Of a DNA stretch of 64,000 bases, positions 17,373-36,728 are shown in pieces (position 1 is the first letter of the stretch; each line of letters starts with the position of its first letter). This DNA is from an uncultured Leptospirales bacterium (GTDB lineage: Bacteria; Spirochaetota; UBA4802; UBA5550), in contig CAZEJW010000004.1 in NCBI GenBank assembly GCA_964512685.1, positions 3,398 through 67,397 of the forward strand, read 5' to 3'. Position numbers and translations under genes: made by a program. The notes under the pieces were generated by a model. The model ran no database searches, was not told the DNA's origin, and saw only the letters and a program-made list of their open reading frames with translations.

Positions 17373-17445
17373 GCCAGCTTAGCTCAGTTGGTAGAGCATG
17401 TCACTCGTAATGACAAGGCCGCCGGTTCGATTCCGGCAGCTGGCT
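17373..17445 (+). tRNA. tRNA-Thr (anticodon CGU)
   Basis: Folded by hand into a cloverleaf: acceptor gccagct/agctggc, D-arm gctc/gagc, anticodon stem tgtca/tgaca with loop ctCGTaa, T-arm gccgg-ttcgatt-ccggc. No encoded CCA. Confidence 0.92.
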
Positions 17446-17560: not shown

Positions 17561-17679
<119 letters not shown>

Positions 17680-18878: not shown

Positions 18879-19126
18879 TATATGATTCCTTTTCTATGGA
18901 GCCAAAGATTGACCGGCTGCGCTGATTTTTTTTGAAAATTCTATAATCTTGACAAAATCTTAAGATATGTTTTTATGTTCAAGAAATTATAGTTTTCGGT
19001 ATTGATATGGTTGTATGGTGCTGCCTCTGGCGGTACCATACAACCATATTGAATGTCAGATGCAGGATGTATGGTTGGGGAAGTGATAATTGTTTCCCGC
19101 TTTTATCTCAAGAATTGGAGGTTCTA

Positions 19127-20218
19127 ATGAGGTATTTTTTTTTAACGGTCAGTTTTATGCTATCTGTAACTATTGGTGCTTTTGCTGCTGGTGATGCCGG
19201 AAAATGTCAGGGAAAGTATCCGGTCGTGCTTGCGCATGGAATGGGTGGCTGTGAGGATATGCTAGAATTCTTTGATTACTGGTATGGTGTTGAAGAAGCT
19301 CTCAGAGAAGAGGGCGCAGAGGTCTGTACTGTAAGAATTAACTGTATGGACAGCACTGAAGCAAAGGCCAAGCAGTTGAGGGATCAGGTGATGTTTTATC
19401 TCGCAACACTTGAAGGGAGAACTGATGTAGACAACACAAAAATACACTACATCGGGCACTCTCATGGTACAATTTATGGTCGTTATGCAATATCTCTTCT
19501 TAGCGCGATTCAAAGATCAGCTGAACAGGTTGCATATGATCAGGAAAACCCTTCAGAAACACTCAAAAATCAATTAATCGATTATGATGCGGATTATATC
19601 GGTGAGAAAGGCAATGCTTATGATTTTACTTACATAGGGCATCACCATGAAAATGCCATTAAACCGTTTTCAGATTACATTGCTACTTATACCAGTGTTT
19701 CCGGAGTACATAAGGGAAGTTCCGGCCCTGACCTGGTATTAGAGATGTGTCAGCTCGCAGACAAAGTGATTCCCGGACCGGAAGGTAAGGGTGAAATTAT
19801 GTTTGGAGATTTCATAAACTTTATCTATGGAATCATTGGTGATACTCCAGGTGCCAACAGCGCACAGAATTGTTATGATTTATCCACAGACTACATGCAA
19901 AATGTATTTAACAAAGCTGTAATCAATGTTGACGGAATTTATTATCAAAGTTATGTGTCATGGATAAAGAGAATGGCTCCTCAGCATCTTGGATTTGCTT
20001 TTCTTTGGCCGGCAATATACAATCGTGAAGGTGATAATGATGGTTGTGTTTCTGTTGATTCAGCTTCATGGGGAGAAGTTCACAAAGTGAATGGGGCATT
20101 TTGGGCCGCAGGTGTCGACCACCTGAATATTATTGGCCACTGGTATGGTTTCACTCCAGGGTATGATGCACCTTCAACATTTGTTGATATGGTAGCAGAC
20201 TTGAGAAACCACGAATAA
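19127..20218 (+). CDS. secreted triacylglycerol lipase, bacterial family I (Pseudomonas/Burkholderia type)
   Basis: Start chosen at ATG 19127 (GGAGG SD at 19117-19121, followed by a signal peptide). 'YPVVLAHGMGG', nucleophile elbow 'GHSHGT', 'GDNDGCVS' (Asp) and 'GVDHLNIIG' (His). Confidence 0.85.
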   Translation: MRYFFLTVSFMLSVTIGAFAAGDAGKCQGKYPVVLAHGMGGCEDMLEFFDYWYGVEEALREEGAEVCTVRINCMDSTEAKAKQLRDQVMFYLATLEGRTDVDNTKIHYIGHSHGTIYGRYAISLLSAIQRSAEQVAYDQENPSETLKNQLIDYDADYIGEKGNAYDFTYIGHHHENAIKPFSDYIATYTSVSGVHKGSSGPDLVLEMCQLADKVIPGPEGKGEIMFGDFINFIYGIIGDTPGANSAQNCYDLSTDYMQNVFNKAVINVDGIYYQSYVSWIKRMAPQHLGFAFLWPAIYNREGDNDGCVSVDSASWGEVHKVNGAFWAAGVDHLNIIGHWYGFTPGYDAPSTFVDMVADLRNHE

Positions 20219-20224
20219 AAAAAA

Positions 20225-20255
20225 GTATAAGGCAGTCTGAAAGACTGCCTTATAC
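20225..20255 (+). terminator. 13-bp hairpin between the lipase and foldase genes (gtataaggcagtc-tgaaa-gactgccttatac)
   Basis: Perfect inverted repeat 6 nt after the lipase stop, with only a weak T-tract ('gttta'). It could be an attenuator or an mRNA-stabilising hairpin rather than a full terminator. Confidence 0.5.
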
Positions 20256-20294
20256 GTTTAATAATTATACTTCAAAAAAATCTCGGAGTTATAA

Positions 20295-21290
20295 ATGTCA
20301 AAAAGAAGTGTTGCAGCAATATTTGGAATATCAATATTATCAGCAATAACACTTTATGTTCTTTTTGGAAATAACCGGCATCATGATCAGACTCAATATA
20401 TTTCAGATACAACCGGCAAAGTTAAATTGAAGGATATTAAAAATCATTTTACAAAAATTGATTTTAACAAAGAGAATTCAAAAGAGATTTTCTCAGAAGG
20501 TGTAGTTAATAAATATACTATTAAATTTTTTAAGTCACTTCAGATTAAATTCAGGAGTTTGGATTATGACTCTCATCTCAATTCCATTCATGATTATCTT
20601 TTTTCAAGAATGCCACACGATGAGGCAGAACAGCTTTATAAGCTATATGTTAAATATATCGGTTATGAGAAGGAGATGGCAGCCAGAATGCAGTCATGGG
20701 GAATGCCAAAATCACCTGAACATATGCTCGAAATGCTTTCACGAATACAAAAGTCTCAGTCTGATTATTTTGGGGAGGAAACAGCTGATATCCTTTTTGG
20801 TACAGAAATCAAGGCAAGAGAATATCCGATTAGGAGAAAAATAATAGTCTCTGATAAAGATCTCTACGGAAGGGAAAAAGAGGAAAAATTAAAAAAACTC
20901 AATCAGGATATGTGGGGATCTGAGAGTGAATCAGTAGGATCTCATAAAACAGATTATGACAATTACAGAGAAAAGCTTGATATTTATTCTAAAGACCTTC
21001 TGGAATTAACAGAAGATGAAAGAAAGAAGAAAATATATTCCTACAGGAAGAATTTTTTTAGTCCAGAGGCTGTTAAAAAAATGGAGGAAGTGGATAATTA
21101 TATTAAAGAAGAAGAGCTGTCTGAAAAAAAATACAGGATGCATGAACAACAAATTTTATCTGATCTGAACCTTGATGAAGATGAAAAAAAACAGGCAGTT
21201 GAAGAGCTTCAGTCCAAATTTTTTGGTAAAGATGGGGCCGAGAGGTGGAGGAAGAGGGAAATCCTTAGGAAAGCTCTTCAAAATAAATAA
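20295..21290 (+). CDS. probable lipase-specific foldase (Lif-type chaperone)
   Basis: 331 aa. N-terminal membrane anchor, then a long helical, charged body, immediately downstream of a family-I lipase as in lipA-lif operons. The assignment rests mostly on context. Confidence 0.55.
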   Translation: MSKRSVAAIFGISILSAITLYVLFGNNRHHDQTQYISDTTGKVKLKDIKNHFTKIDFNKENSKEIFSEGVVNKYTIKFFKSLQIKFRSLDYDSHLNSIHDYLFSRMPHDEAEQLYKLYVKYIGYEKEMAARMQSWGMPKSPEHMLEMLSRIQKSQSDYFGEETADILFGTEIKAREYPIRRKIIVSDKDLYGREKEEKLKKLNQDMWGSESESVGSHKTDYDNYREKLDIYSKDLLELTEDERKKKIYSYRKNFFSPEAVKKMEEVDNYIKEEELSEKKYRMHEQQILSDLNLDEDEKKQAVEELQSKFFGKDGAERWRKREILRKALQNK

Positions 21291-22882: not shown

Positions 22883-24145
22883 TTACTTTGGTCTGAGCAT
22901 CTCAATGTATGCCTCAATCCGAGTTCTCATCTGCTCGATATCCTCAGGATTATATTCTGTCTCGAGTCTGAGAACCGGAATGTTGTATTTCTTGAGAAGA
23001 TTATTTACACGTGGCAGCTCATAGTCATAAACAATGCAACCTTTAAGAACATGATATAACACACCATCAATTCTATAGTCCTCTATAATAGTTTTCAACC
23101 TGTGAAGTCTGTCTTCGTTGGGAGAAAACGTAGGGCAGACGCAGGGCATCATATATCTTGCAGCAAGGGCAGAAATGATTTCATTGTCGGATTTTTCGCT
23201 CATCCCCACCGGATCATATAGCAAACGATCTCCGGTGCATGATTCATCTATAACTGTTATCCCGCCCATCTCCTCTATAAGATTGTAAACCTTCCAGTTC
23301 GGGAAAATGGATGGCGAACCTGCAAGCAAAATTCTGGGAGACTCTGTATCAAAAATTGTTACATTCTTATCGAGTCTTTCTTCAAGTTCATCGTTTAGTT
23401 TAGACATTGCTTTTGTCCATTCCTGGGGAGCGCAGAACGAATAAGAGTTAACTGCAAGTGCCGCTTCGCGTCCGGAAATAAGGGGCTTGCTTGATTTTCT
23501 TATTTCAAGAAGTCTTGCTGCTTCTTTTTGTGCTTCTGCAATCATCCTGATCGATGATAAAACTTTTTTTTTGGTGATTTTTTGACCTGTAAGTTCCTCG
23601 AGTTTTTTTCTGAGTACTTTTATCTGTTCAACCCAGATTCTTCTTGTAAAGTCAGTTTCTTTGACATGGGGAACTTCGAGGGTCCATACATTTTTATATT
23701 TTGAAATTTCTTCTCCAAGTTTTCTTATCGAATCACATGTTGTTGGAACAATTACAGTTTCACATTCTTCATAAGGTATAAGTATCTCTCCGGCAGTTAA
23801 TCCAAGTGATGATTTTGCAACCAGACATGAATCTCTCGGTATCATTTCTTCGCCGATAGTTGAACTCTCATAGCATCCGGCAGAAAGTTTTACCGGTACT
23901 GCTCCTGCTGCATAGATTAATTCCTCGGGAACCATCATGCAGTATATACCAATCTTTTTTCTTTCGCATATTTCTGCCGGTAATTTGTTTTTGACAAAAA
24001 CAGATCTCATTAAATCTATAAAGTAGTTAAGTGATTTAGGTATATTTTCAGTTTCTTCAATAGAGCTTAGCTCTCGTTCGGCAGATAGTGCGATACGTTT
24101 TCTCAATTGTTCTCTTTGCTTAACTAAACGGTTGTCTGTATTCAT
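22883..24145 (-). CDS. 2-hydroxyacyl-CoA dehydratase / BcrC-HgdB family Fe-S protein (possibly a double-cubane-cluster protein)
   Basis: 420 aa. 'VIVPTTCDSIRKLGE', 'PCVCPTF', 'IDGVLYHVLKGCIVYDYE' and many conserved-looking Cys residues. The size fits stand-alone DCCP-type proteins. Confidence 0.7.
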   Translation of the reverse strand: MNTDNRLVKQREQLRKRIALSAERELSSIEETENIPKSLNYFIDLMRSVFVKNKLPAEICERKKIGIYCMMVPEELIYAAGAVPVKLSAGCYESSTIGEEMIPRDSCLVAKSSLGLTAGEILIPYEECETVIVPTTCDSIRKLGEEISKYKNVWTLEVPHVKETDFTRRIWVEQIKVLRKKLEELTGQKITKKKVLSSIRMIAEAQKEAARLLEIRKSSKPLISGREAALAVNSYSFCAPQEWTKAMSKLNDELEERLDKNVTIFDTESPRILLAGSPSIFPNWKVYNLIEEMGGITVIDESCTGDRLLYDPVGMSEKSDNEIISALAARYMMPCVCPTFSPNEDRLHRLKTIIEDYRIDGVLYHVLKGCIVYDYELPRVNNLLKKYNIPVLRLETEYNPEDIEQMRTRIEAYIEMLRPK

Positions 24146-24151
24146 TTTTTT

Positions 24152-25075
24152 TTACCCTTTGAATTCTTTCTGCTCTTTACTGAATCTGTTTCTTTTCGAT
24201 TTATATATTGTTTTACCCAGATATGTTGCATAGAGGGCATCGTCTTCTGGACAGAACTCTATACAACGCAGGCAGTAAATACAGTCAGGGAAAAGAACGT
24301 CACTGTTATTTCTCTCTTCAAATACTTCCTGTATTTCCATAGGACAAACATTGTAGCAAATGCCACATCTTGTGCACCTGTCTGGATTTTTTTTCAATTT
24401 TGCAAAACCGATTTTGTCATAAAACGAAATAAGTAGTGACATTGGACAATAGCAGCAAAAAAATCTTCTTTTAAAAAAAGAGCCAACAATTGTCAGGGAT
24501 GTTATAAGTGCTCCAAGGACAGACATGACAAGTGCAGTAGTTGTACTGAAGTCAACACCTACTCTTTCAGGTGTCCCTCCTATTATAGGCATTATGTAAC
24601 GGGCCGGGCAAAGAGAACAAAAAGGTGTTCGCATATCTCTTGCTATTTCGGGTGCAAAAAAAGGATAAGCAACCCAGAAAGGAATTGCAATTATAAGAAA
24701 AATCCATTTAAGAGAACTCAATCCTCTTCTCAGTCCGGATGGAAATCTGATATAATTAATGCCAATCTTTTTTCTCATCCAGTCCATGCAGTCGTGAAGG
24801 AATCCCAGAGGGCAGAACCATCCGCACCATACAGGACCAAGCATTATAACCAGCAATGAAAAGAGGAAAAAAGTCAAAGCAAACTCTGTCCAGAGTTCGC
24901 GCTGAATTGTATCCTGTAAAGTGTAAAGATAACATATTCCTCCGATTTTTTGTCCAGTGAAGTTACATGAAAACGTAGGAAGAAAATTACCAAGGTAGAG
25001 ACCGTATAATCCTCCAAAAGTCAGTAAGAAAAATGAAACAGTCATTATAATCCATCTAAGTCTTGCCAGTGTCAT
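24152..25075 (-). CDS. membrane-bound polyferredoxin, NapH/MauN-like
   Basis: Start taken at ATG 25075, 1 nt after the upstream stop. TM segments with 'CGWFCPLGF' and 'CSLCPARY', plus two 4Fe-4S motifs 'CTRCGICYNVCP' and 'CIYCLRCIEFCP'. Confidence 0.75.
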   Translation of the reverse strand: MTLARLRWIIMTVSFFLLTFGGLYGLYLGNFLPTFSCNFTGQKIGGICYLYTLQDTIQRELWTEFALTFFLFSLLVIMLGPVWCGWFCPLGFLHDCMDWMRKKIGINYIRFPSGLRRGLSSLKWIFLIIAIPFWVAYPFFAPEIARDMRTPFCSLCPARYIMPIIGGTPERVGVDFSTTTALVMSVLGALITSLTIVGSFFKRRFFCCYCPMSLLISFYDKIGFAKLKKNPDRCTRCGICYNVCPMEIQEVFEERNNSDVLFPDCIYCLRCIEFCPEDDALYATYLGKTIYKSKRNRFSKEQKEFKG

Positions 25076-25076
25076 G

Positions 25077-25460
25077 TTATTTCCATATGTTATTTTTTGT
25101 AAAAATAGATGTGCTGATTTTATCTCTTCGATATTTAATGAAGAATCTAATAAGAGCAATCAAAATGATTATTCCGGTGATGTTTATTCCCCATGAAAGG
25201 AGAATCCCTTCGTATGATCTGTATTCCGGCCAGGGTGGATCCACTATCATCTGAAGCGTTGCGACATGAATTGTTTTATTGTCAGGATGTTCTGCGATAT
25301 ATAAATATTTTTCGAATGAGTATTCTTTATTTCTTCCTTCAAGTGGTACTGATGTAAATTTGCCATTCTTATCAGTTTCCAATTGTTTTTGCCATTTATT
25401 TTCAGTTAGGATCGTTATTTTACATCCAGGCAAAGGTTTTCCTTTATAAGTCACCATCAT
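25077..25460 (-). CDS. beta-sandwich (DUF4198 / carboxypeptidase-regulatory-like) protein with a C-terminal TM anchor; the coding frame stays open upstream to 25631
   Basis: 127 aa from ATG 25460. 'GKPLPGCKITILTE...ETDKNGKFTS' and a C-terminal TM followed by 'KYRRDK'. The 57 codons upstream are stop-free and in frame with the TGA of the preceding gene. Confidence 0.45.
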   Translation of the reverse strand: MMVTYKGKPLPGCKITILTENKWQKQLETDKNGKFTSVPLEGRNKEYSFEKYLYIAEHPDNKTIHVATLQMIVDPPWPEYRSYEGILLSWGINITGIIILIALIRFFIKYRRDKISTSIFTKNNIWK

Positions 25461-25631
25461 ATCATATTCCCTGTGTGAAATCTGGATAGAACCAATGTAG
25501 CGTGATGCTGATGCAGGGGTTATTTCCAGGCCGATGTTTGGCAGAACAAAGGAAGGATTTTCGATTCGTTCAGGATTACCGTTTTTGTAATGTGCAAATA
25601 TAATTTTAGGATAAAATATTTTTGAGCCTGT

Positions 25632-26447
25632 TCATGATCTTCTTTTTCCCGGTATGTAATAAAGGACCATAAGAAAAATTACAATCCCAAGTCCAATTAT
25701 TATGAAAAAGAAACCAGGATCATATGTTTCAAAGATAAAGACCTGTGGATTAATATCATTGCTTTTTTTTACTTCGGATCGATTGCAGACTGTTGTAGTT
25801 TGATTTTCTTTTTTCGTTTTATTTCTTTTTTCAATCTCGACATGTAGAAATCTGCCTGCAACAAACAGAGGATTCATATAACTGAGTTTGTATTGATTTG
25901 ATTTTTCTGAAAGTTGCAAACTACATTGTCTTACGTGTCCCTTCATTGATGAATGTTCTGGATATATCTCAAAGACTATATCTTCAACTTTAAATAGATG
26001 AGATTCTATTTCTATAATTTTTCCTTTTTCAATCGGTATTCTTTTATGTTCTGCTATAGTGAATGTGAAGAAATGTCCTGTCAGTATTATAATAAAAAGT
26101 AAATGGACTGCTGAAGGAATTACAAGTTTAAAAAATGTACCCTGGAAATTTTTCCTTTTTTTAATAAGGAACTTTAATCGGTTAATTGTACATACTATTG
26201 TATTAACAGTCAGCAGCGAAAGTACTATGTAAAGCATAATGACCCACCAGGTCATTGATGGTGAGCTGATATTATCCGATAACCATTTTTGAAATGGGAC
26301 AACATCCATCTTTTCATAGTATTTATAAAACCTGTATGAATACAATGATCCTGTAATAAAAAGTGCTGTCGCGGAAATCAATAGCCAATAAGTCAGTTTT
26401 ACACTACCAAGGAAATCATGTATCCTTTTCATATTATACCTCTGCAA
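25632..26447 (-). CDS. short ResB/Ccs1-like membrane protein
   Basis: 271 aa. N-terminus 'FLGSVKLTYWLLISATALF', 4 predicted TM segments, His-containing TM 'SAVHLLFIIILTGHFF', and a ~120-aa external loop. It is shorter than canonical ResB. Confidence 0.5.
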   Translation of the reverse strand: MQRYNMKRIHDFLGSVKLTYWLLISATALFITGSLYSYRFYKYYEKMDVVPFQKWLSDNISSPSMTWWVIMLYIVLSLLTVNTIVCTINRLKFLIKKRKNFQGTFFKLVIPSAVHLLFIIILTGHFFTFTIAEHKRIPIEKGKIIEIESHLFKVEDIVFEIYPEHSSMKGHVRQCSLQLSEKSNQYKLSYMNPLFVAGRFLHVEIEKRNKTKKENQTTTVCNRSEVKKSNDINPQVFIFETYDPGFFFIIIGLGIVIFLMVLYYIPGKRRS

Positions 26448-27180
26448 TAAGTTTCAGTAAATTTCCTGCTGGTGCAGCAAAGCCAAAAAACAAAAGAATC
26501 AAACCTCCAATTGCTGCATAACCTGCTCTTGACCTCAGGTTCCACGATTGCATGTAAACAAGATGAATGTAGCATGCATAAAAGCACCATATCGCAGCTG
26601 ACTGCATATGAACATATACCCATTGAAATGTCATAGCCCATCCTAAAAAACACCAGACAGCTCCGGTTACCTGCCCCGCAGTGTGCATTATAAAGCCCGT
26701 TATGAGGAGTGTGTGAAAATTTACGGATTCCTCTCTGTTGAAAAAGTATAAGAGTCCATACCATGCTCCCAGGTAAAAGCATGCATGGCCGAATACTATA
26801 GTTATGTGGAAAAGGGTTGACCATATTGAAATTTTGTTTGGTCCGAGTACTCCTGGTGCTGAAGATTCAAGAAGTGCGATTGCATAAAAAAAACAGGGAA
26901 GAATAACTGCTGATTCGGCATTCGATTCTTTCTGTCTGGTTACTATATAGATAATAATAATTGATATAAAGAATGGCAGGAGGTGAACAGCTGTCAGGAA
27001 GTGAGGAAACATGAATTCACCGCTTGAAAAGCCTCTTAATAATAAATAAAAAAAATTTAATACAGCTGCAAGAATCAGAAATAATTTTGTTCCTCTGCTT
27101 CGGTTGAGGATGTGCAAACAAAGCGATAAAAGGTATGTAATTGCGGTTGAATAGAGCAGCGCGGTGTTGGACGAGATCAT
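26434..27180 (-). CDS. CcsA/HemX-type 'cytochrome c assembly' family membrane protein with a degenerate WWD motif
   Basis: 248 aa, about 8 TM segments. Trp-rich 'GAVWCFLGWAMTFQWVYVHMQSAAIW' and flanking His residues. 14-nt overlap with the ResB-like gene. Confidence 0.55.
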   Translation of the reverse strand: MISSNTALLYSTAITYLLSLCLHILNRSRGTKLFLILAAVLNFFYLLLRGFSSGEFMFPHFLTAVHLLPFFISIIIIYIVTRQKESNAESAVILPCFFYAIALLESSAPGVLGPNKISIWSTLFHITIVFGHACFYLGAWYGLLYFFNREESVNFHTLLITGFIMHTAGQVTGAVWCFLGWAMTFQWVYVHMQSAAIWCFYACYIHLVYMQSWNLRSRAGYAAIGGLILLFFGFAAPAGNLLKLIAEV

Positions 27181-27309: not shown

Positions 27310-27978
27310 GAATTTTCCTATGAAGAAGTTATTTCTTTATAGTTGGAAAGATAACATATATTATCTCAGTTTTTTTATGACATTTCCCATTCCCGTTGTT
27401 TGGAGTGGAGGAAATTGATTCAATATTAAACAAGATTAAGATGAGGAACAGTTTATAGAGCAGAAGTTTTTTTCAGACTGTAGGAAATCTGGGTGTAGGT
27501 TCCGGGGGGAAATTATTTTCTGTTGTAATAATTTTATGAATGCCAGACTTAACAGGTTTTGGTTTTGTATCGATATTTTATTTTTAGTACAATATTTATT
27601 TTCTTTGTTTAAGAAGAAATTGTCTTAAAGAAAATTTCTTTTACGTTCAAGACAAAATTGACAGGATTTATTTTTTATACAGTTATTGACTTATCATATG
27701 ATATATATATTTATTGAAACAACAAAGAAGCAGAAATTATGAATTACTGTTATTGTTATAAATTCTTACAGATACAGTGAGATCGAAAACCTTGAACAAG
27801 GGAATCTCGGTAAATTAATGTTTTCACTTTCCCTTCTGGGTATAACCTCAGATGAAATTATGAGTTTTTATCTGTAATCTTTAGAGGTACCCATGATTTT
27901 GTAAGTTAAGCTTATATACTATTTCTAAATTGTCCTGATAATATATGATCAGGTTTTACGATCTCCCTCAATTATCCT

Positions 27979-35612: not shown

Positions 35613-35849
35613 TAAAATACTCCTGTAAGGTAATTCAGCGGTAGAAAGTTCCGCCTTAAGCCTGTCAAATCCGCAATTAACTTAAAACTGATTGTAATTC
35701 AGGCAAGAAAATCGGTGGGTTATTAAAGCTTTTTCACAGCCATTAAATCATGCAGCCGGTTTGTGTCAATGACTATAAAGAAAATATAGTGTCAGTCCCG
35801 ATCTTTTTTTTATTGACACTATATATTTATTATTTCATCTGATTATATA

Positions 35850-35981
<132 letters not shown>

Positions 35982-36074
35982 TGATTGCATCTGTTTCCCT
36001 TCAGAGGATTAACTGCGCAGATTATCATCTCATACCCTGAATATTGAAATAACCTAATATAACAGGGAGAAATT

Positions 36075-36728
36075 ATGAACAGACCACTTCTATCAAGATT
36101 CGGAAATTCGGAAAAAAGAATTACAACAGCTGTAGAGTATCTCAAAGCCGGTAAGGGAGTTCTTCTTGTGGATGATGAAGATCGTGAAAACGAGGGGGAT
36201 ATTATCTTTCCTGCGGAAACAATCACAATTGATCAGATGGCAATGCTGATAAGACACTGCAGCGGAATCGTTTGTCTTCCGATGACTGATGAAAAAATGA
36301 AACAGCTTGATCTGCCGGACATGGTTGATAAAAATACAAGCGCAAACAGAACAGCCTTCACTGTTTCGATAGAGGCTGCAACCGGAGTAACAACCGGCGT
36401 ATCTGCATCTGACAGGGTAACAACAATAAGAACGGCAGTTTCTGAAGGATGCAGACCTGATGAACTGAACAGACCCGGGCATGTTTTTCCTCTCAGAGCT
36501 GCACCTGGAGGAGTTTTTTCCAGACGCGGCCATACTGAAGGAACTGTGGATATCATGAGGATTGCCGGATACAAACCCGCCGGAGTACTCTGTGAACTTA
36601 CCAACGAGGATGGAACAATGGCACGCTTGCCGGAAATAATTGTATTTGCTGAAAAAAATGATTTAACCGTGCTCACAATTGAGGATATAGTACACTACAG
36701 AAAAATGAATGATAAGCAGGGAATATAA
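36075..36728 (+). CDS. ribB: 3,4-dihydroxy-2-butanone-4-phosphate synthase
   Basis: 217 aa. '[20 protein letters not shown]' and '[10 protein letters not shown]'. Confidence 0.95.

What the first reader, a model, noticed from the sequence alone, without database searches (positions are those of the whole stretch)
22883..27180. Tightly coupled operon: CcsA/ResB-like proteins, beta-sandwich protein, NapH-type polyferredoxin and HgdB/double-cubane-family Fe-S protein, with no cytochrome c and no activator ATPase
- **Packing.** Five consecutive minus-strand ORFs are packed for translational coupling. There is a 14-nt overlap (26434-26447), a single in-frame TGA (25632-25634), a 1-nt gap (25076) and a 6-nt gap (24146-24151).
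- **Unusual combination.** System-II cytochrome c biogenesis-type membrane proteins normally export heme and ligate it to CXXCH apocytochromes. I find no CXXCH motif in any ORF of the cluster or its flanks. The CcsA-like WWD motif is degenerate ('GAVWCFLGWAMTFQW') and the ResB-like protein is about half the normal length.
- **Missing activase.** The last gene belongs to the 2-hydroxyacyl-CoA dehydratase / benzoyl-CoA reductase / double-cubane family. Known members need an ATP-hydrolysing ASKHA-type activase or electron donor, and none is present in the window.
- **Working hypothesis (inference only).** The partner is instead a membrane polyferredoxin with 'CxWxCPxG' motifs and 2x[4Fe-4S]. This could be a membrane-anchored low-potential reductase module in which the polyferredoxin, and perhaps a heme handled by the CcsA/ResB-like pair, replaces the soluble ATP-dependent activator.
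- **Upstream.** The operon is preceded by a 1.2-kb non-coding region.
Basis: partly seen in the sequence, partly recalled or inferred. Interest (0 to 1): 0.7.

Follow-up and report, generated by a model that had tools for sequence, protein, structure and literature searches.

The report
Cut-down cofactor-metal uptake reductase cluster
The five genes are real, but they are a trimmed copy of a larger, uncharacterised gene set that anaerobes attach to outer-membrane uptake systems for tungsten/molybdenum or cobalt cofactors. Most relatives still carry the ATP-driven activator next to it, so it is not an activator-free new design.

Summary
**Observation.** Confirmed, with corrections. Five co-directional minus-strand ORFs occupy 22883-27180. 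The ResB-like gene starts at ATG 26432, giving a 1-nt spacer and not a 14-nt overlap. The third ORF is an N-terminally deleted remnant.

**Family calls.** All hold, though two hold only at family or fold level:
- a heme-handling CcsA-like protein;
- a mini-ResB;
- a DUF4198-like β-sandwich;
- a NapH-type polyferredoxin;
- a six-Cys double-cubane protein (DCCP).

**The CcsA/ResB-like pair.** In 83 related loci the two genes are always adjacent.
- About 56 loci carry a TonB-dependent receptor.
- About 61 carry periplasmic proteins with sulfite-oxidase-like and tetrapyrrole-methylase domains.
- 32 carry tungsten markers: TunR-like regulators, TupA/WtpA, or P3-less Moco/Tuco riboswitches.

The pair is therefore not a cytochrome c maturation system.

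**The β-sandwich–NapH–DCCP trio.** It recurs behind these tungsten-type operons. It also recurs behind cobalamin-riboswitch operons and beside a BtuFCD-like importer.

**Activase.** An ASKHA activase follows the DCCP gene in five relatives, including a natural NapH::DCCP fusion. It is absent in two others and in the window. "Polyferredoxin replaces the activase" is therefore not supported.

**Best reading.** This is a reduced copy of a low-potential reductase module serving TonB-dependent cofactor-metal acquisition. The cargo and the direction of electron flow remain unknown.

The parts
26434..27180 (-). CcsA-like heme-handling-family membrane protein (248 aa). The WWD box is degenerate (WVYVH in place of WDPKE). 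The family-invariant residues H191, H206, W176, G180, W181 and W198 are retained.
   Evidence: - PF01578 scores 19 bits, below the gathering cutoff of 29.9; TIGR03144 gives E 6e-10.
- The homologues P0002, P0004 and P0005 carry PF01578.
- AlphaFold model: pLDDT 78, pTM 0.80; top PDB hit CcsBA 7S9Y, prob 1.0, TMq 0.64.
- Conservation was measured across 84 sequences.
- Against strain L007 there are 4 synonymous and 0 nonsynonymous differences.
25632..26432 (-). Mini-ResB/CcsB-like membrane protein (266 aa from ATG 26432, stop TGA 25632-25634). It is predicted to have N-terminal helices, a small β-domain and a C-terminal helix. The family-conserved residues W50, W63, N77, C81, H110 and H120 are retained.
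   Evidence: - The window protein itself has no Pfam or NCBIfam hit.
- 45 of 64 family members hit PF05140 ResB, with a best E of 1.9e-13.
- AlphaFold model: pLDDT 79; top PDB hits are CcmF 6ZMQ (E 5e-5) and CcsBA 7S9Y/7S9Z.
- The start codon was fixed from homologue alignment and the RBS.
25607..25636 (-). A 9-codon stub (ATG AAC ... TAA, MNRLKNILS*). Its ATG overlaps the ResB-like TGA (ATGA). It is probably the stranded original start of the β-sandwich gene.
Evidence: Read directly from the sequence.
25077..25631 (-). Remnant of a DUF4198-like periplasmic β-sandwich protein with a C-terminal membrane anchor. Only 25077-25460 (127 aa) has a start codon. The signal peptide and the N-terminal ~150 residues are deleted.
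   Evidence: - PF10670 scores 20.8 bits, below the gathering cutoff of 34.
- 39% identity to residues 151-306 of the 337-aa L001 homologue.
- Alignment A3.
- The same structure is present in the 99.6%-identical contig L007.
24152..25075 (-). NapH-type membrane polyferredoxin (307 aa). It has a CGWFCPLG motif, two further CxxCP motifs, and a C-terminal 2x[4Fe-4S] domain.
   Evidence: - Fer4_5 scores 41 bits, above the cutoff of 22; TIGR02163 scores 69.5 bits, below its cutoff of 213.
- Motif positions.
- 50% identity to the L001 orthologue.
- A natural fusion of this type to HGD-D exists (P0150).
22883..24145 (-). Double-cubane-cluster-protein (DCCP) family reductase (420 aa), with the N-terminal extension of class I DCCPs.
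   Evidence: - PF06050 scores 317 bits; NF040772 scores 326.7 bits against a cutoff of 350.
- DCCP structures 7YYL and 6ENO match at E about 1e-63.
- Cys at 69, 107, 137, 303, 337 and 370 fit the published ligand spacing (PMC7317905).
27181..28399 (.). AT-rich (27% GC) non-coding stretch upstream of the cluster. It presumably holds the promoter. It contains no riboswitch and no gene remnants.
   Evidence: -.
- The segment 27719-27925 carries 25 of the 45 differences from the sister contig L007.

Best explanation
**What the cluster is.** The five ORFs form one co-transcribed unit. It is a reduced copy of a conserved but uncharacterised gene set made of two parts.

**(1) The CcsA-like/mini-ResB pair.**
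- It keeps the heme-handling-protein fold and four conserved His plus one Cys.
- It has lost the WWD Asp and has no c-type apocytochrome partner.
- In other anaerobes it is the inner-membrane component of TonB-dependent operons. These contain the receptor, periplasmic proteins with sulfite-oxidase-like and tetrapyrrole-methylase domains, and ExbBD/TonB.
- Those operons are controlled by P3-less Moco/Tuco riboswitches or TunR-type regulators and sit beside tungstate ABC transporters.
- This places the pair in tungsten/molybdenum cofactor economy, not cytochrome c maturation.

**(2) The β-sandwich–NapH-like–DCCP trio.**
- It is a portable, membrane-anchored, low-potential reductase module.
- It is bolted onto such uptake operons and also onto cobalamin-riboswitch/CobN operons.

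**Inferred mechanism.**
- An ASKHA activase uses ATP to push an electron onto the DCCP double-cubane.
- The NapH-like 4Fe-4S clusters at the cytoplasmic membrane face couple the DCCP to the membrane.
- The coupling runs either to the exported β-sandwich (CcoG-like logic) or to the CcsA/ResB channel.
- The imported metal or cofactor species is thereby reduced during or after import.

**State of the window copy.**
- The exported β-sandwich is truncated.
- No receptor, periplasmic protein, permease, regulator or activase is present.
- The unit must therefore rely on partners encoded elsewhere, or it works in a crippled form.

**Shown versus inferred.** Shown: family and fold assignments, synteny, regulator linkage, and the lesions. 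Inferred: cargo, electron path, and function in trans.
For: - **Synteny with L001.** The same five-gene order occurs, at 33-52% identity per gene. It is preceded by TBDR, a second CcsA/ResB pair, periplasmic Oxidored_molyb+TP_methylase proteins and a permease. It is followed by an activase.
- **Other complete or partial versions.** L047, L090 and L093 are complete versions. L062, L091 and L092 are cut by contig ends.
- **Co-occurrence across 83 non-redundant loci.** The pair is always adjacent. A TBDR is present in about 56 loci and the periplasmic proteins in about 61.
- **Tungsten linkage.**
  - RF01055 riboswitches lie directly upstream of the TBDR in L004, L024, L047, L052, L060, L062 and L090.
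  - The L047 riboswitch lacks P3, the proposed Tuco type (PMC2408646).
  - TunR-like regulators occur in 19 loci, TupA-like in 15 and WtpA in 2. The union with riboswitches is 32 of 83 loci.
- **Fold evidence.** ResB Pfam hits occur in 45 of 64 family members.
- **DCCP ligands.** All trio HGD-D proteins keep the six-Cys spacing.
- **Trio in other uptake operons.**
  - L096: two cobalamin riboswitches, TBDR, DUF4430, the trio, CobN, ExbBD, TonB.
  - L098: cobalamin riboswitch and the trio.
  - L101: the trio, activase and DsbD_2, next to TBDR and a BtuFCD-like importer.
- **NapH::HGD-D fusion.** P0150 has an activase immediately downstream.
- **Purifying selection on the pair.** Against the 99.6%-identical contig L007 there are 8 synonymous and 1 nonsynonymous differences.
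Against: - The window has none of the tungsten or cobalamin markers: no riboswitch, TBDR, ExbBD or activase. Its link to metal or cofactor uptake therefore rests on homology and synteny elsewhere.
- Only L001 shares the direct CcsA–ResB–β-sandwich junction. In the other tungsten-type operons a permease precedes the trio.
- Several features suggest a tetrapyrrole-like cargo and sit uneasily with tungstate:
  - the TBDR is nearest to heme/B12/siderophore receptor models;
  - the methylase domain keeps its GVGPGD motif;
  - the pair keeps heme-type His residues;
  - L016 has a BtuFCD-like importer.
- Loci carrying the trio are few, about ten independent ones, and many are cut by contig ends.
- No experiment exists, and no paper on the system was found.
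Confidence: 0.55

Rival explanations
1. **Reader's hypothesis.** This is a self-sufficient, activase-independent membrane reductase. The NapH-type polyferredoxin, possibly with a heme held by the CcsA/ResB-like pair, delivers electrons to the DCCP in place of the ATP-dependent activase.
For: - No activase is present anywhere in the 64-kb window.
- L096 and L097 also lack an activase next to the trio.
- The NapH-like and HGD-D genes are always adjacent and are fused once.
- L070 has CcsA–ResB–NapH-like without a DCCP, which links the polyferredoxin to the pair.
Against: - Five independent relatives, including the closest orthologues (L001, L047, L093) and the NapH::HGD-D fusion locus, carry both polyferredoxin and activase. 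The two are therefore partners, not substitutes.
- Published DCCP chemistry depends on ATP-driven reduction by DCCP-R (PMC7317905; PMC9351452 abstract).
- Activases can act in trans, and only 64 kb of the genome is visible.
- Quinol-level electrons from a NapH-type protein are far too positive for a double-cubane. This last point is established knowledge and was not tested here.
Confidence: 0.15
2. **Decaying relic.** The cluster is a non-functional leftover of a larger operon after deletions removed the receptor side, the activase and half of the β-sandwich gene.
For: - The β-sandwich gene is truncated, without a start codon or signal peptide, and has a stranded ATG stub.
- All partner genes that are conserved elsewhere are absent.
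- The window's CcsA-like protein deviates at 4 of 24 family-conserved columns.
Against: - Four of the five ORFs are full length, with all catalytic Cys and His intact.
- The CcsA/ResB-like genes show 8 synonymous and 1 nonsynonymous differences between two strains.
- The same architecture is kept in both strains.
- Tight spacing and ribosome-binding sites are preserved.
Confidence: 0.2
3. **Tetrapyrrole salvage.** The cargo of the pair and the trio is a metallo-tetrapyrrole (heme or a corrinoid). The CcsA/ResB-like pair translocates it. The DCCP module reduces the bound metal for de-metallation or re-use, in the way HmuS needs reduced heme.
For: - Heme-handling fold with conserved His and Cys.
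- The methylase domain resembles CbiF/CobM/CbiL and keeps GVGPGD.
- The TBDR is nearest to heme and B12 receptor models.
- L016 has CcsA–ResB followed by Peripla_BP_2, FecCD and an ABC ATPase.
- The trio sits under cobalamin riboswitches with CobN and DUF4430 in L096 and L098.
- HmuS de-chelation needs the membrane fraction plus a reductant (PMC12583661).
Against: - Operons containing the pair are regulated by Moco/Tuco riboswitches and TunR-like proteins and sit beside tungstate transporters. No cobalamin riboswitch was found next to any CcsA/ResB pair in about 40 loci scanned.
- The cobalamin-regulated trios lack the CcsA/ResB pair.
Confidence: 0.2
4. **Dedicated cytochrome c synthetase.** The pair would attach heme to a substrate with a non-CXXCH motif, like the NrfI/CcsA1 isoenzymes. 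That comparison is from established knowledge.
For: - The CcsBA and CcmF folds are the top structural matches.
- A DsbD_2-like membrane protein follows the module in L047, L097 and L101.
Against: - No CXXCH or CXXCK occurs in the cluster or its flanks.
- No Cys is conserved at 80% or more in either form of the co-encoded periplasmic proteins.
- The WWD Asp is lost across the whole family.
Confidence: 0.04

Closest known systems
Double-cubane cluster protein DCCP with its reductase DCCP-R (Carboxydothermus hydrogenoformans CHY_0487/0488; PDB 6ENO, 7YYL)
   Same: - HGD-D fold, matching at E about 1e-63.
- Six Cys ligands with the published spacing.
- An N-terminal extension of similar length.
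- In most related loci an ASKHA activase lies directly downstream.
   Different: - The second, non-ligand Cys is shifted by about 3 residues.
- The gene is always preceded by a NapH-type membrane polyferredoxin and a β-sandwich gene.
- It is embedded in TonB-dependent uptake operons.
- There is no cis activase in the window.
- The physiological role of DCCPs is unknown (PMC7317905), so there is no functional precedent.
System II cytochrome c synthetase CcsBA / ResBC (PDB 7S9Y) and CcmF (6ZMQ)
   Same: - The fold is the top structural match for both proteins.
- The periplasmic His after the Trp-rich box and the membrane His residues are conserved.
- The two genes are always adjacent.
   Different: - The Trp-rich box lacks the WWD Asp.
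- The ResB-like protein is half the usual size, with a small β-domain.
- There is no CXXCH protein, CcdA or ResA in the window.
- The family lives in TBDR operons regulated by Moco/Tuco riboswitches or TunR, and not near cytochrome genes.
NapH/MauN/NosH and CcoG-type membrane polyferredoxins
   Same: - Fer4_5 CxxCP motifs at helix ends and a C-terminal 2x[4Fe-4S] domain.
- Pairing with an Ig-like/β-sandwich periplasmic domain recalls the cupric reductase CcoG. That comparison is from established knowledge.
   Different: - The protein scores far below the NapH equivalog cutoffs.
- It has no NapG/NapAB, NosZ or cbb3 oxidase partner.
- Its partner is a cytoplasmic DCCP.
hmu-type TonB-dependent heme uptake with the CobN-family de-chelatase HmuS
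   Same: - A TonB-dependent receptor plus ExbBD/TonB plus a membrane-associated, reductant-dependent step.
- L096 places the trio between the receptor and a CobN-family protein (PMC12583661).
   Different: - The window and the tungsten-type operons have no CobN-family gene.
- Regulation is by Moco/Tuco or cobalamin riboswitches.
Tungstate/molybdate acquisition regulons (TupABC, WtpABC, TunR, Moco/Tuco riboswitch)
   Same: The same regulators and neighbouring transporters occur in 32 of 83 loci that carry the CcsA/ResB-like pair.
   Different: - Known W/Mo uptake uses ABC transporters only.
- I found no description of a TonB-dependent receptor with a CcsA/ResB-like pair and sulfite-oxidase-like/methylase periplasmic proteins.

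Membership tests
System II cytochrome c biogenesis, CcsA/ResC | Match to PF01578 or TIGR03144 at the curated cutoff | tested here: not met
   PF01578 scores 19 bits against 29.9. TIGR03144 scores 39.2 bits against 187.6, and only residues 158-231 align.
System II cytochrome c biogenesis, CcsA/ResC | WWD signature (W-rich box ending in WxWD..E) | tested here: not met
   The sequence reads GAVWCFLGWAMTFQWVYVH. The Asp is replaced across the whole family of 84 sequences. The canonical motif is taken from established knowledge.
System II cytochrome c biogenesis, CcsA/ResC | Conserved His following the W-rich box (P-His2), and overall fold | tested here: met
   H206 is 100% conserved and H191 93%. 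The AlphaFold model's top PDB hit is CcsBA 7S9Y, prob 1.0, TMq 0.64.
System II cytochrome c biogenesis, ResB/CcsB | Match to PF05140 ResB | tested here: inconclusive
   The window protein has no hit. However, 45 of 64 proteins of its family hit PF05140, with a best E of 1.9e-13. The model hits CcmF 6ZMQ (E 5e-5) and CcsBA (E 4e-4).
System II cytochrome c biogenesis (system level) | CXXCH apocytochrome substrates and thiol-reduction partners (CcdA/ResA) in the genomic context | tested here: not met
   No CXXCH was found between 15 and 35 kb. Neighbours in the window are unrelated. The family's context is TBDR plus tungsten markers.
Double-cubane cluster protein (DCCP, NF040772) | HGD-D fold and the NF040772 cutoff | tested here: inconclusive
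   PF06050 scores 317 bits, which is met. NF040772 scores 326.7 bits against a cutoff of 350, just below. The orthologue in L047 scores 352.9 and passes.
Double-cubane cluster protein (DCCP, NF040772) | Six Cys ligands of the [8Fe-9S] cluster within the 7-Cys motif | tested here: met
   C69, C107, C137, C303, C337 and C370 have spacings that match CX19CX18-19CX29CX166-170CX32-34CX32C within 1-2 residues. The non-ligand second Cys (C91) is displaced by about 3 residues.
Double-cubane cluster protein (DCCP, NF040772) | Associated ASKHA-type ATP-dependent reductase (DCCP-R) gene | tested here: not met
   None is present in the 64-kb window. One is present in cis in L001, L047, L093, L095 and L101, and absent in L096 and L097.
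Double-cubane cluster protein (DCCP, NF040772) | [8Fe-9S] cofactor and ATP-dependent small-molecule reduction | not testable with these tools
   This needs protein purification, EPR or crystallography, and activity assays.
NapH/MauN polyferredoxin (TIGR02163) | Fer4_5 CxxCP motifs plus a 2x[4Fe-4S] domain | tested here: met
   Fer4_5 scores 41.1 bits against 22. Motifs: CGWFCP, CSLCP, CCYCP, and two CxxCxxCxxxCP.
NapH/MauN polyferredoxin (TIGR02163) | Equivalog-level score and Nap/Mau partner genes | tested here: not met
   TIGR02163 scores 69.5 against 213, and NF007013 scores 64 against 234. There are no nap or mau genes nearby.
DUF4198 periplasmic β-sandwich (PF10670) | Pfam gathering score and an exported full-length domain | tested here: not met
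   The score is 20.8 bits against 34. The signal peptide and N-terminal half are missing relative to 335-344-aa homologues.
Tungsten-linked TBDR–CcsA/ResB-like operon (uncharacterised; defined here) | Adjacent CcsA-like and mini-ResB genes of this subfamily | tested here: met
   The window pair scores E 5.8e-75 against the family profile and shares its invariant residues.
Tungsten-linked TBDR–CcsA/ResB-like operon (uncharacterised; defined here) | TonB-dependent receptor, periplasmic sulfite-oxidase-like/methylase protein, and a W/Mo regulator or transporter nearby | tested here: not met
   None is present in the window by tblastn, HMM or Rfam.

The most novel reading that the evidence does not exclude
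**Claim.** The CcsA/mini-ResB pair is a heme-handling-protein lineage re-purposed as the inner-membrane translocator, or as a heme-b electron conduit, of a previously unrecognised TonB-dependent tungsten/molybdenum-cofactor acquisition pathway.

**Role of the trio.** The β-sandwich–NapH–DCCP(–activase) trio would be its ATP-energised reductase.

**Consequences if true.**
- It would give double-cubane proteins their first physiological role: low-potential reduction of an imported metal or cofactor species. The role would be shared with cobalamin-regulated cobalt/corrinoid operons.
- The window's activase-less form, like L096 and L097, would be a variant that draws electrons through the polyferredoxin or a trans-acting activase.
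Probability: 0.3. Interest if true: 0.85.

Novelty: new variant of a known kind. Interest (0 to 1): 0.6.

Why it matters
**DCCP function.** Double-cubane cluster proteins are structurally well described, but their physiological function is unknown (PMC7317905). This work places one DCCP subfamily in a conserved context:
- it is always paired with a NapH-type membrane polyferredoxin and a β-sandwich protein;
- it sits inside TonB-dependent uptake operons switched by Moco/Tuco or cobalamin riboswitches.

That gives a concrete, testable idea of what these enzymes are for.

**A re-purposed heme-handling family.** The CcsA/ResB heme-handling family has a widespread branch, found in at least 80 species-level genomes from several anaerobic phyla. 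This branch has nothing to do with cytochrome c maturation and tracks tungsten regulators instead.

**Tungsten supply.** For anaerobes that depend on tungsten or molybdenum formate dehydrogenases, such as syntrophs, sulfate reducers and Spirochaetota, a TonB-dependent route for this metal or cofactor would be new.

**The window itself.** The copy in the window is a poor exemplar, because it is truncated and isolated from its partners.

Tried and rejected
- **PDB profile searches.** Sequence-profile searches of the PDB with the CcsA-like (A1) and ResB-like (A2) alignments found nothing useful. Fold search was needed instead.
- **TGA readthrough, selenocysteine or fusion.** I considered that the ResB-like protein and the β-sandwich region might be joined across the TGA. 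I rejected this for two reasons:
  - Homologues of the ResB-like protein end at the same place.
  - A fusion would put a normally periplasmic domain on the cytoplasmic side of the last helix (inference).
- **Frameshift restoring a signal peptide.** I rejected this because no hydrophobic core exists in any frame.
- **Remnants in the upstream gap.** I looked for remnants of TBDR, methylase, permease or activase genes in the 1.2-kb upstream gap. I also looked for a degenerate riboswitch there. None was found.
- **Covariance model.** I started a covariance model of the Moco riboswitch hits. The MAFFT alignment was poor, so I abandoned it and used Rfam scans on subsets instead. About 40 of the loci were scanned, so riboswitch counts are lower bounds.
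- **WtpA cluster error.** My first 'WtpA-like' neighbour cluster was contaminated by shadow ORFs inside the permease gene. True WtpA occurs in only 2 loci, and L001 has no tungsten marker. This was corrected.
- **L070 fusion.** I suspected a ResB::NapH fusion in L070. It turned out to be an over-extended ORF and not a fusion.
- **Organism name.** Exact-sequence look-ups returned no names.
- **Literature.** Searches for this gene combination returned nothing relevant.
- **Promoter/terminator scan.** It was uninformative.

Full report
**1. What is in the window**

The minus strand between 22883 and 27180 carries five co-directional ORFs.
- The ResB-like gene most likely starts at ATG 26432, not at the upstream TTG.
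  - Homologues align from that Met.
  - A GAGG lies 6 nt upstream.
  - The gene call on a sister contig uses it.
  - The first junction is therefore a 1-nt spacer, not a 14-nt overlap.
- The ResB-like TGA (25632-25634) is followed, in the same frame, by 57 codons without any ATG/GTG/TTG. These codons nevertheless align to homologues.
- No CXXCH occurs in the cluster, or in any long open frame between 15 and 35 kb.
- The 1219 nt upstream are 27% GC. They contain no ORF of 50 aa or more, no Rfam match even at E ≤ 10, and no detectable remnant of any partner gene.
- Neighbouring genes are unrelated. They are lnt, a lipase with its chaperone, an ankyrin protein, a two-component system and others.

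**2. Family assignments**

*HGD-D/DCCP.*
- PF06050 scores 317 bits. NF040772 'double-cubane' scores 326.7 bits against a cutoff of 350.
- The best PDB matches are the DCCP structures 7YYL and 6ENO, at E about 1e-63.
- The published 7-Cys motif (PMC7317905) is matched at the six ligand positions: C69, C107, C137, C303, C337 and C370.
- The non-ligand second Cys is displaced by about 3 residues.

*NapH type.*
- Fer4_5 scores above its cutoff.
- CGWFCPLG and two further CxxCP motifs are present, with a C-terminal 2x[4Fe-4S] domain.
- The score is far below the NapH equivalog cutoffs.

*CcsA-like.*
- It is sub-threshold by HMM: PF01578 scores 19 bits and TIGR03144 gives E 6e-10.
- Its homologues carry PF01578.
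- The AlphaFold model (pLDDT 78, pTM 0.80) has CcsBA 7S9Y as its top PDB hit, with prob 1.0 and TMq 0.64.

*ResB-like.*
- The window protein has no HMM hit of its own.
- 45 of 64 members of its family hit Pfam ResB, with a best E of 1.9e-13.
- Its model (pLDDT 79) hits CcmF 6ZMQ and CcsBA.

*β-sandwich.* It gives a weak DUF4198 match of 20.8 bits.

Two of them stand only at family or fold level.

**3. The third ORF is a remnant**
- Full-length homologues are 335-344 aa. They have a signal peptide and a highly conserved N-terminal half (…YVNGYNDPDRDIWEVRNEAELLRRRLG…).
- The window region aligns only to residues about 151-323.
- An ATG overlapping the ResB-like stop (ATGA at 25636) opens a 9-codon frame that ends in TAA. 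I read this as the original start codon, stranded by an internal out-of-frame deletion (inference).
- The only usable start is ATG 25460, giving 127 aa without a signal peptide.
- A natural short form of this protein exists elsewhere (190 aa in L098), but it does have a signal peptide.
- The lesion is not an assembly artefact. An independent contig at 99.6% identity (L007) has the same structure.

**4. Where the CcsA/ResB-like pair belongs**

A pattern scan of one genome per species returned 80 loci. They come from Spirochaetota, several Desulfobacterota orders, Thermodesulfovibrionales, Acidobacteriota/Aminicenantes, Syntrophales and others.

Home-made HMM maps gave the following:
- The two genes are always adjacent.
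- A TonB-dependent receptor is present in about 56 loci.
- A family of periplasmic proteins is present in about 61 loci.
- An APC permease is present in 18 loci.
- ExbB/ExbD/TonB are present in about 25 loci.

The periplasmic proteins come in two forms:
- a roughly 350-aa lipoprotein with two sulfite-oxidase-like (Oxidored_molyb) domains;
- a roughly 590-aa form that adds a tetrapyrrole-methylase domain with an intact GVGPGD motif.

Neither form has a conserved Cys.

Rfam found Moco/Tungsten riboswitches directly upstream of the receptor in L004, L024, L047, L052, L060, L062 and L090.
- The L047 copy lacks the P3 stem.
- Regulski et al. proposed that this variant senses the tungsten cofactor (PMC2408646).

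Strict counts over 83 non-redundant loci:
- TunR-type regulators (excisionase HTH plus a PBP-like domain): 19 loci;
- TupA-like proteins: 15 loci;
- WtpA: 2 loci;
- these markers or a riboswitch: 32 loci.

This branch of the heme-handling family is therefore tied to tungsten/molybdenum cofactor economy, not to cytochrome c maturation. The family keeps W176, G180, W181, W198, H191 and H206 in the CcsA-like protein. It keeps W50, W63, N77, C81, H110 and H120 in the mini-ResB. It has lost the WWD Asp.

**5. Where the β-sandwich–NapH–DCCP trio belongs**

*Tungsten-type operons.*
- The trio follows the tungsten-type operon in L001-3, L047, L093 and L090. The L090 contig ends in the NapH-like gene.
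- It also follows that operon in L062, L091 and L092, which are cut earlier.
- In L047 and L090 the whole string sits behind the riboswitch.

*Other contexts.* An exhaustive search with the NapH-like protein, followed by context look-ups, showed the trio elsewhere too:
- L096: two cobalamin riboswitches, TBDR, DUF4430, the trio, a CobN-family protein, ExbB, ExbD and TonB.
- L098: a cobalamin riboswitch and the trio.
- L101: the trio, an activase and DsbD_2, beside a TBDR and a BtuFCD-like importer.
- L097: the trio and a DsbD_2-like protein.

*Fusion.* One protein (P0150) is a natural fusion of a NapH-like polyferredoxin to HGD-D.

*Cluster ligands.* All these HGD-D proteins keep the six-Cys spacing.

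The trio is thus a portable module attached to TonB-dependent uptake operons for cofactor metals.

A useful analogy is the CobN-family heme de-chelatase HmuS. Its reaction needs the membrane fraction, a reductant and reduced heme (PMC12583661).

**6. The activase question**
- A BcrAD_BadFG gene overlaps the end of the DCCP gene in L001, L047, L093 and L101. It also follows the NapH::HGD-D fusion in L095.
- It is absent next to the trio in L096 and L097, and absent from the whole 64-kb window.
- Polyferredoxin and activase co-occur in most cases, even when the polyferredoxin is fused to the DCCP. The polyferredoxin is therefore a partner of the activase-driven system, not its replacement.
- Cis absence in three loci leaves room for trans-acting activases, which are common in anaerobes (established knowledge). 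Less likely, it points to a true activase-independent variant.

**7. Status of the window copy**
- Four genes are intact, with all catalytic residues.
- Between the two 99.6%-identical contigs, the CcsA-like and ResB-like genes differ by 8 synonymous and 1 nonsynonymous changes. This suggests purifying selection, but the numbers are small.
- Against this, the exported β-sandwich is broken.
- None of the usual partners, whether receptor, periplasmic protein, permease, regulator or activase, is within 64 kb.
- The window's pair is closest to the 'second' pair type. That type is not next to the receptor in L001 and L004, so a partner operon elsewhere in the genome is plausible.

**8. Mechanism (inference)**

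An activase energises an electron with ATP and passes it to the DCCP double-cubane. The NapH-like clusters on the cytoplasmic face link the DCCP to the membrane.

The periplasmic β-sandwich plus polyferredoxin resembles a split CcoG-type metal reductase. The CcsA/ResB-like pair could act in one of two ways:
- it translocates a planar or metal-bearing cargo;
- it holds heme b as a transmembrane electron wire, as CcmF does.

The CcoG and CcmF comparisons are from established knowledge.

The cargo is unresolved. The regulators point to tungsten/molybdenum. The protein families point to something tetrapyrrole-like: heme/B12-type receptor models, a corrin-methylase-like domain and heme-handling proteins.

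**9. Novelty and verdict**
- I found no paper describing this combination.
- The individual parts are members or variants of known families.
- The assembly, and its link to Tuco and B12 riboswitch-controlled uptake, appear undescribed. They give DCCPs a testable physiological context.
- The window's instance is a truncated, isolated copy.

Interest is 0.6, mainly for the parent system and not for this copy.

Noticed in passing
L004, L024, L047, L052, L060, L062, L090 (e.g. L047:7712-7831): Moco/Tungsten riboswitches (RF01055, 59-72 bits) lie directly upstream of TonB-dependent receptor genes. These receptors head operons containing CcsA/ResB-like pairs. The L047 copy lacks the P3 stem, the proposed tungsten-cofactor type. 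I found no description of a TonB-dependent system under this riboswitch.
   Followed up: partly
L001:5009-6790, L004:8154-9917, L042:3315-4442 and about 60 other loci: A family of exported proteins has two sulfite-oxidase-like (Oxidored_molyb) domains. The roughly 350-aa form is a lipoprotein. The roughly 590-aa form adds a tetrapyrrole-methylase domain that keeps its GVGPGD SAM-site motif although it appears to be periplasmic. No Cys is conserved, so it is not a classical Mo enzyme.
   Followed up: partly
L096:5319-5849 and L098:1386-1559: Cobalamin riboswitches, two in tandem in L096, control operons that contain the same β-sandwich–NapH–DCCP trio. In L096 the operon also has a TonB-dependent receptor, DUF4430, a 1363-aa CobN-family protein and ExbBD/TonB, with no activase.
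   Followed up: partly
L095:680-2713 (protein P0150): This is a natural fusion of a NapH-type membrane polyferredoxin to an HGD-D/DCCP domain (677 aa). An activase and a second HGD-D gene lacking the six-Cys pattern follow it. There is only a single example, on a 5-kb contig.
   Followed up: partly
L016:3329-8383: In a Desulfatiglandales MAG the CcsA/ResB-like pair is followed by a Peripla_BP_2–FecCD–ABC ATPase importer, the heme/B12/siderophore type.
   Followed up: no
L070:9860-12646: In an Acidobacteria MAG the CcsA/ResB-like pair is followed directly by a NapH-like polyferredoxin and a DUF481 outer-membrane protein, with no DCCP. This links the polyferredoxin to the pair independently of the DCCP.
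   Followed up: partly
window 27719-27925: Of the 45 differences between the window and the 99.6%-identical contig L007, 25 fall in this 207-nt stretch of the upstream non-coding region. The stretch lies at the very end of the L007 contig. It could be an assembly-end artefact or a recombination or variable spot.
   Followed up: no
window 17373-17445 and 17562-17678: A tRNA and a 5S rRNA gene stand alone, with protein-coding ORFs immediately upstream and no 23S rRNA nearby. Unlinked rRNA genes are typical of Leptospira-like spirochaetes (established knowledge). This fits the nearest relatives of the CcsA-like protein, which are Spirochaetota and Leptospirales MAGs.
   Followed up: no
window 35846-35986: An FMN riboswitch (127 bits) lies upstream of ribB (36075-36728).
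   Followed up: no
window 19007-21290: A lipase-like gene is paired with a lipase-chaperone (Lipase_chap) gene. It sits next to lnt, immediately downstream of the cluster.
   Followed up: no
L047:18443-19120, L097:3324-3749, L101:13072-13731: A DsbD_2/ArsG-like membrane protein follows the trio, after the activase where one is present, in three loci. Its role is unknown, and it is absent from the window.
   Followed up: no
L008:2912-3009, L010:4722-4818, L011:1680-1777: TPP riboswitches with thiamine genes lie divergently next to 'orphan' CcsA/ResB-like pairs in three Spirochaetota loci. This is probably only a conserved neighbourhood.
   Followed up: no
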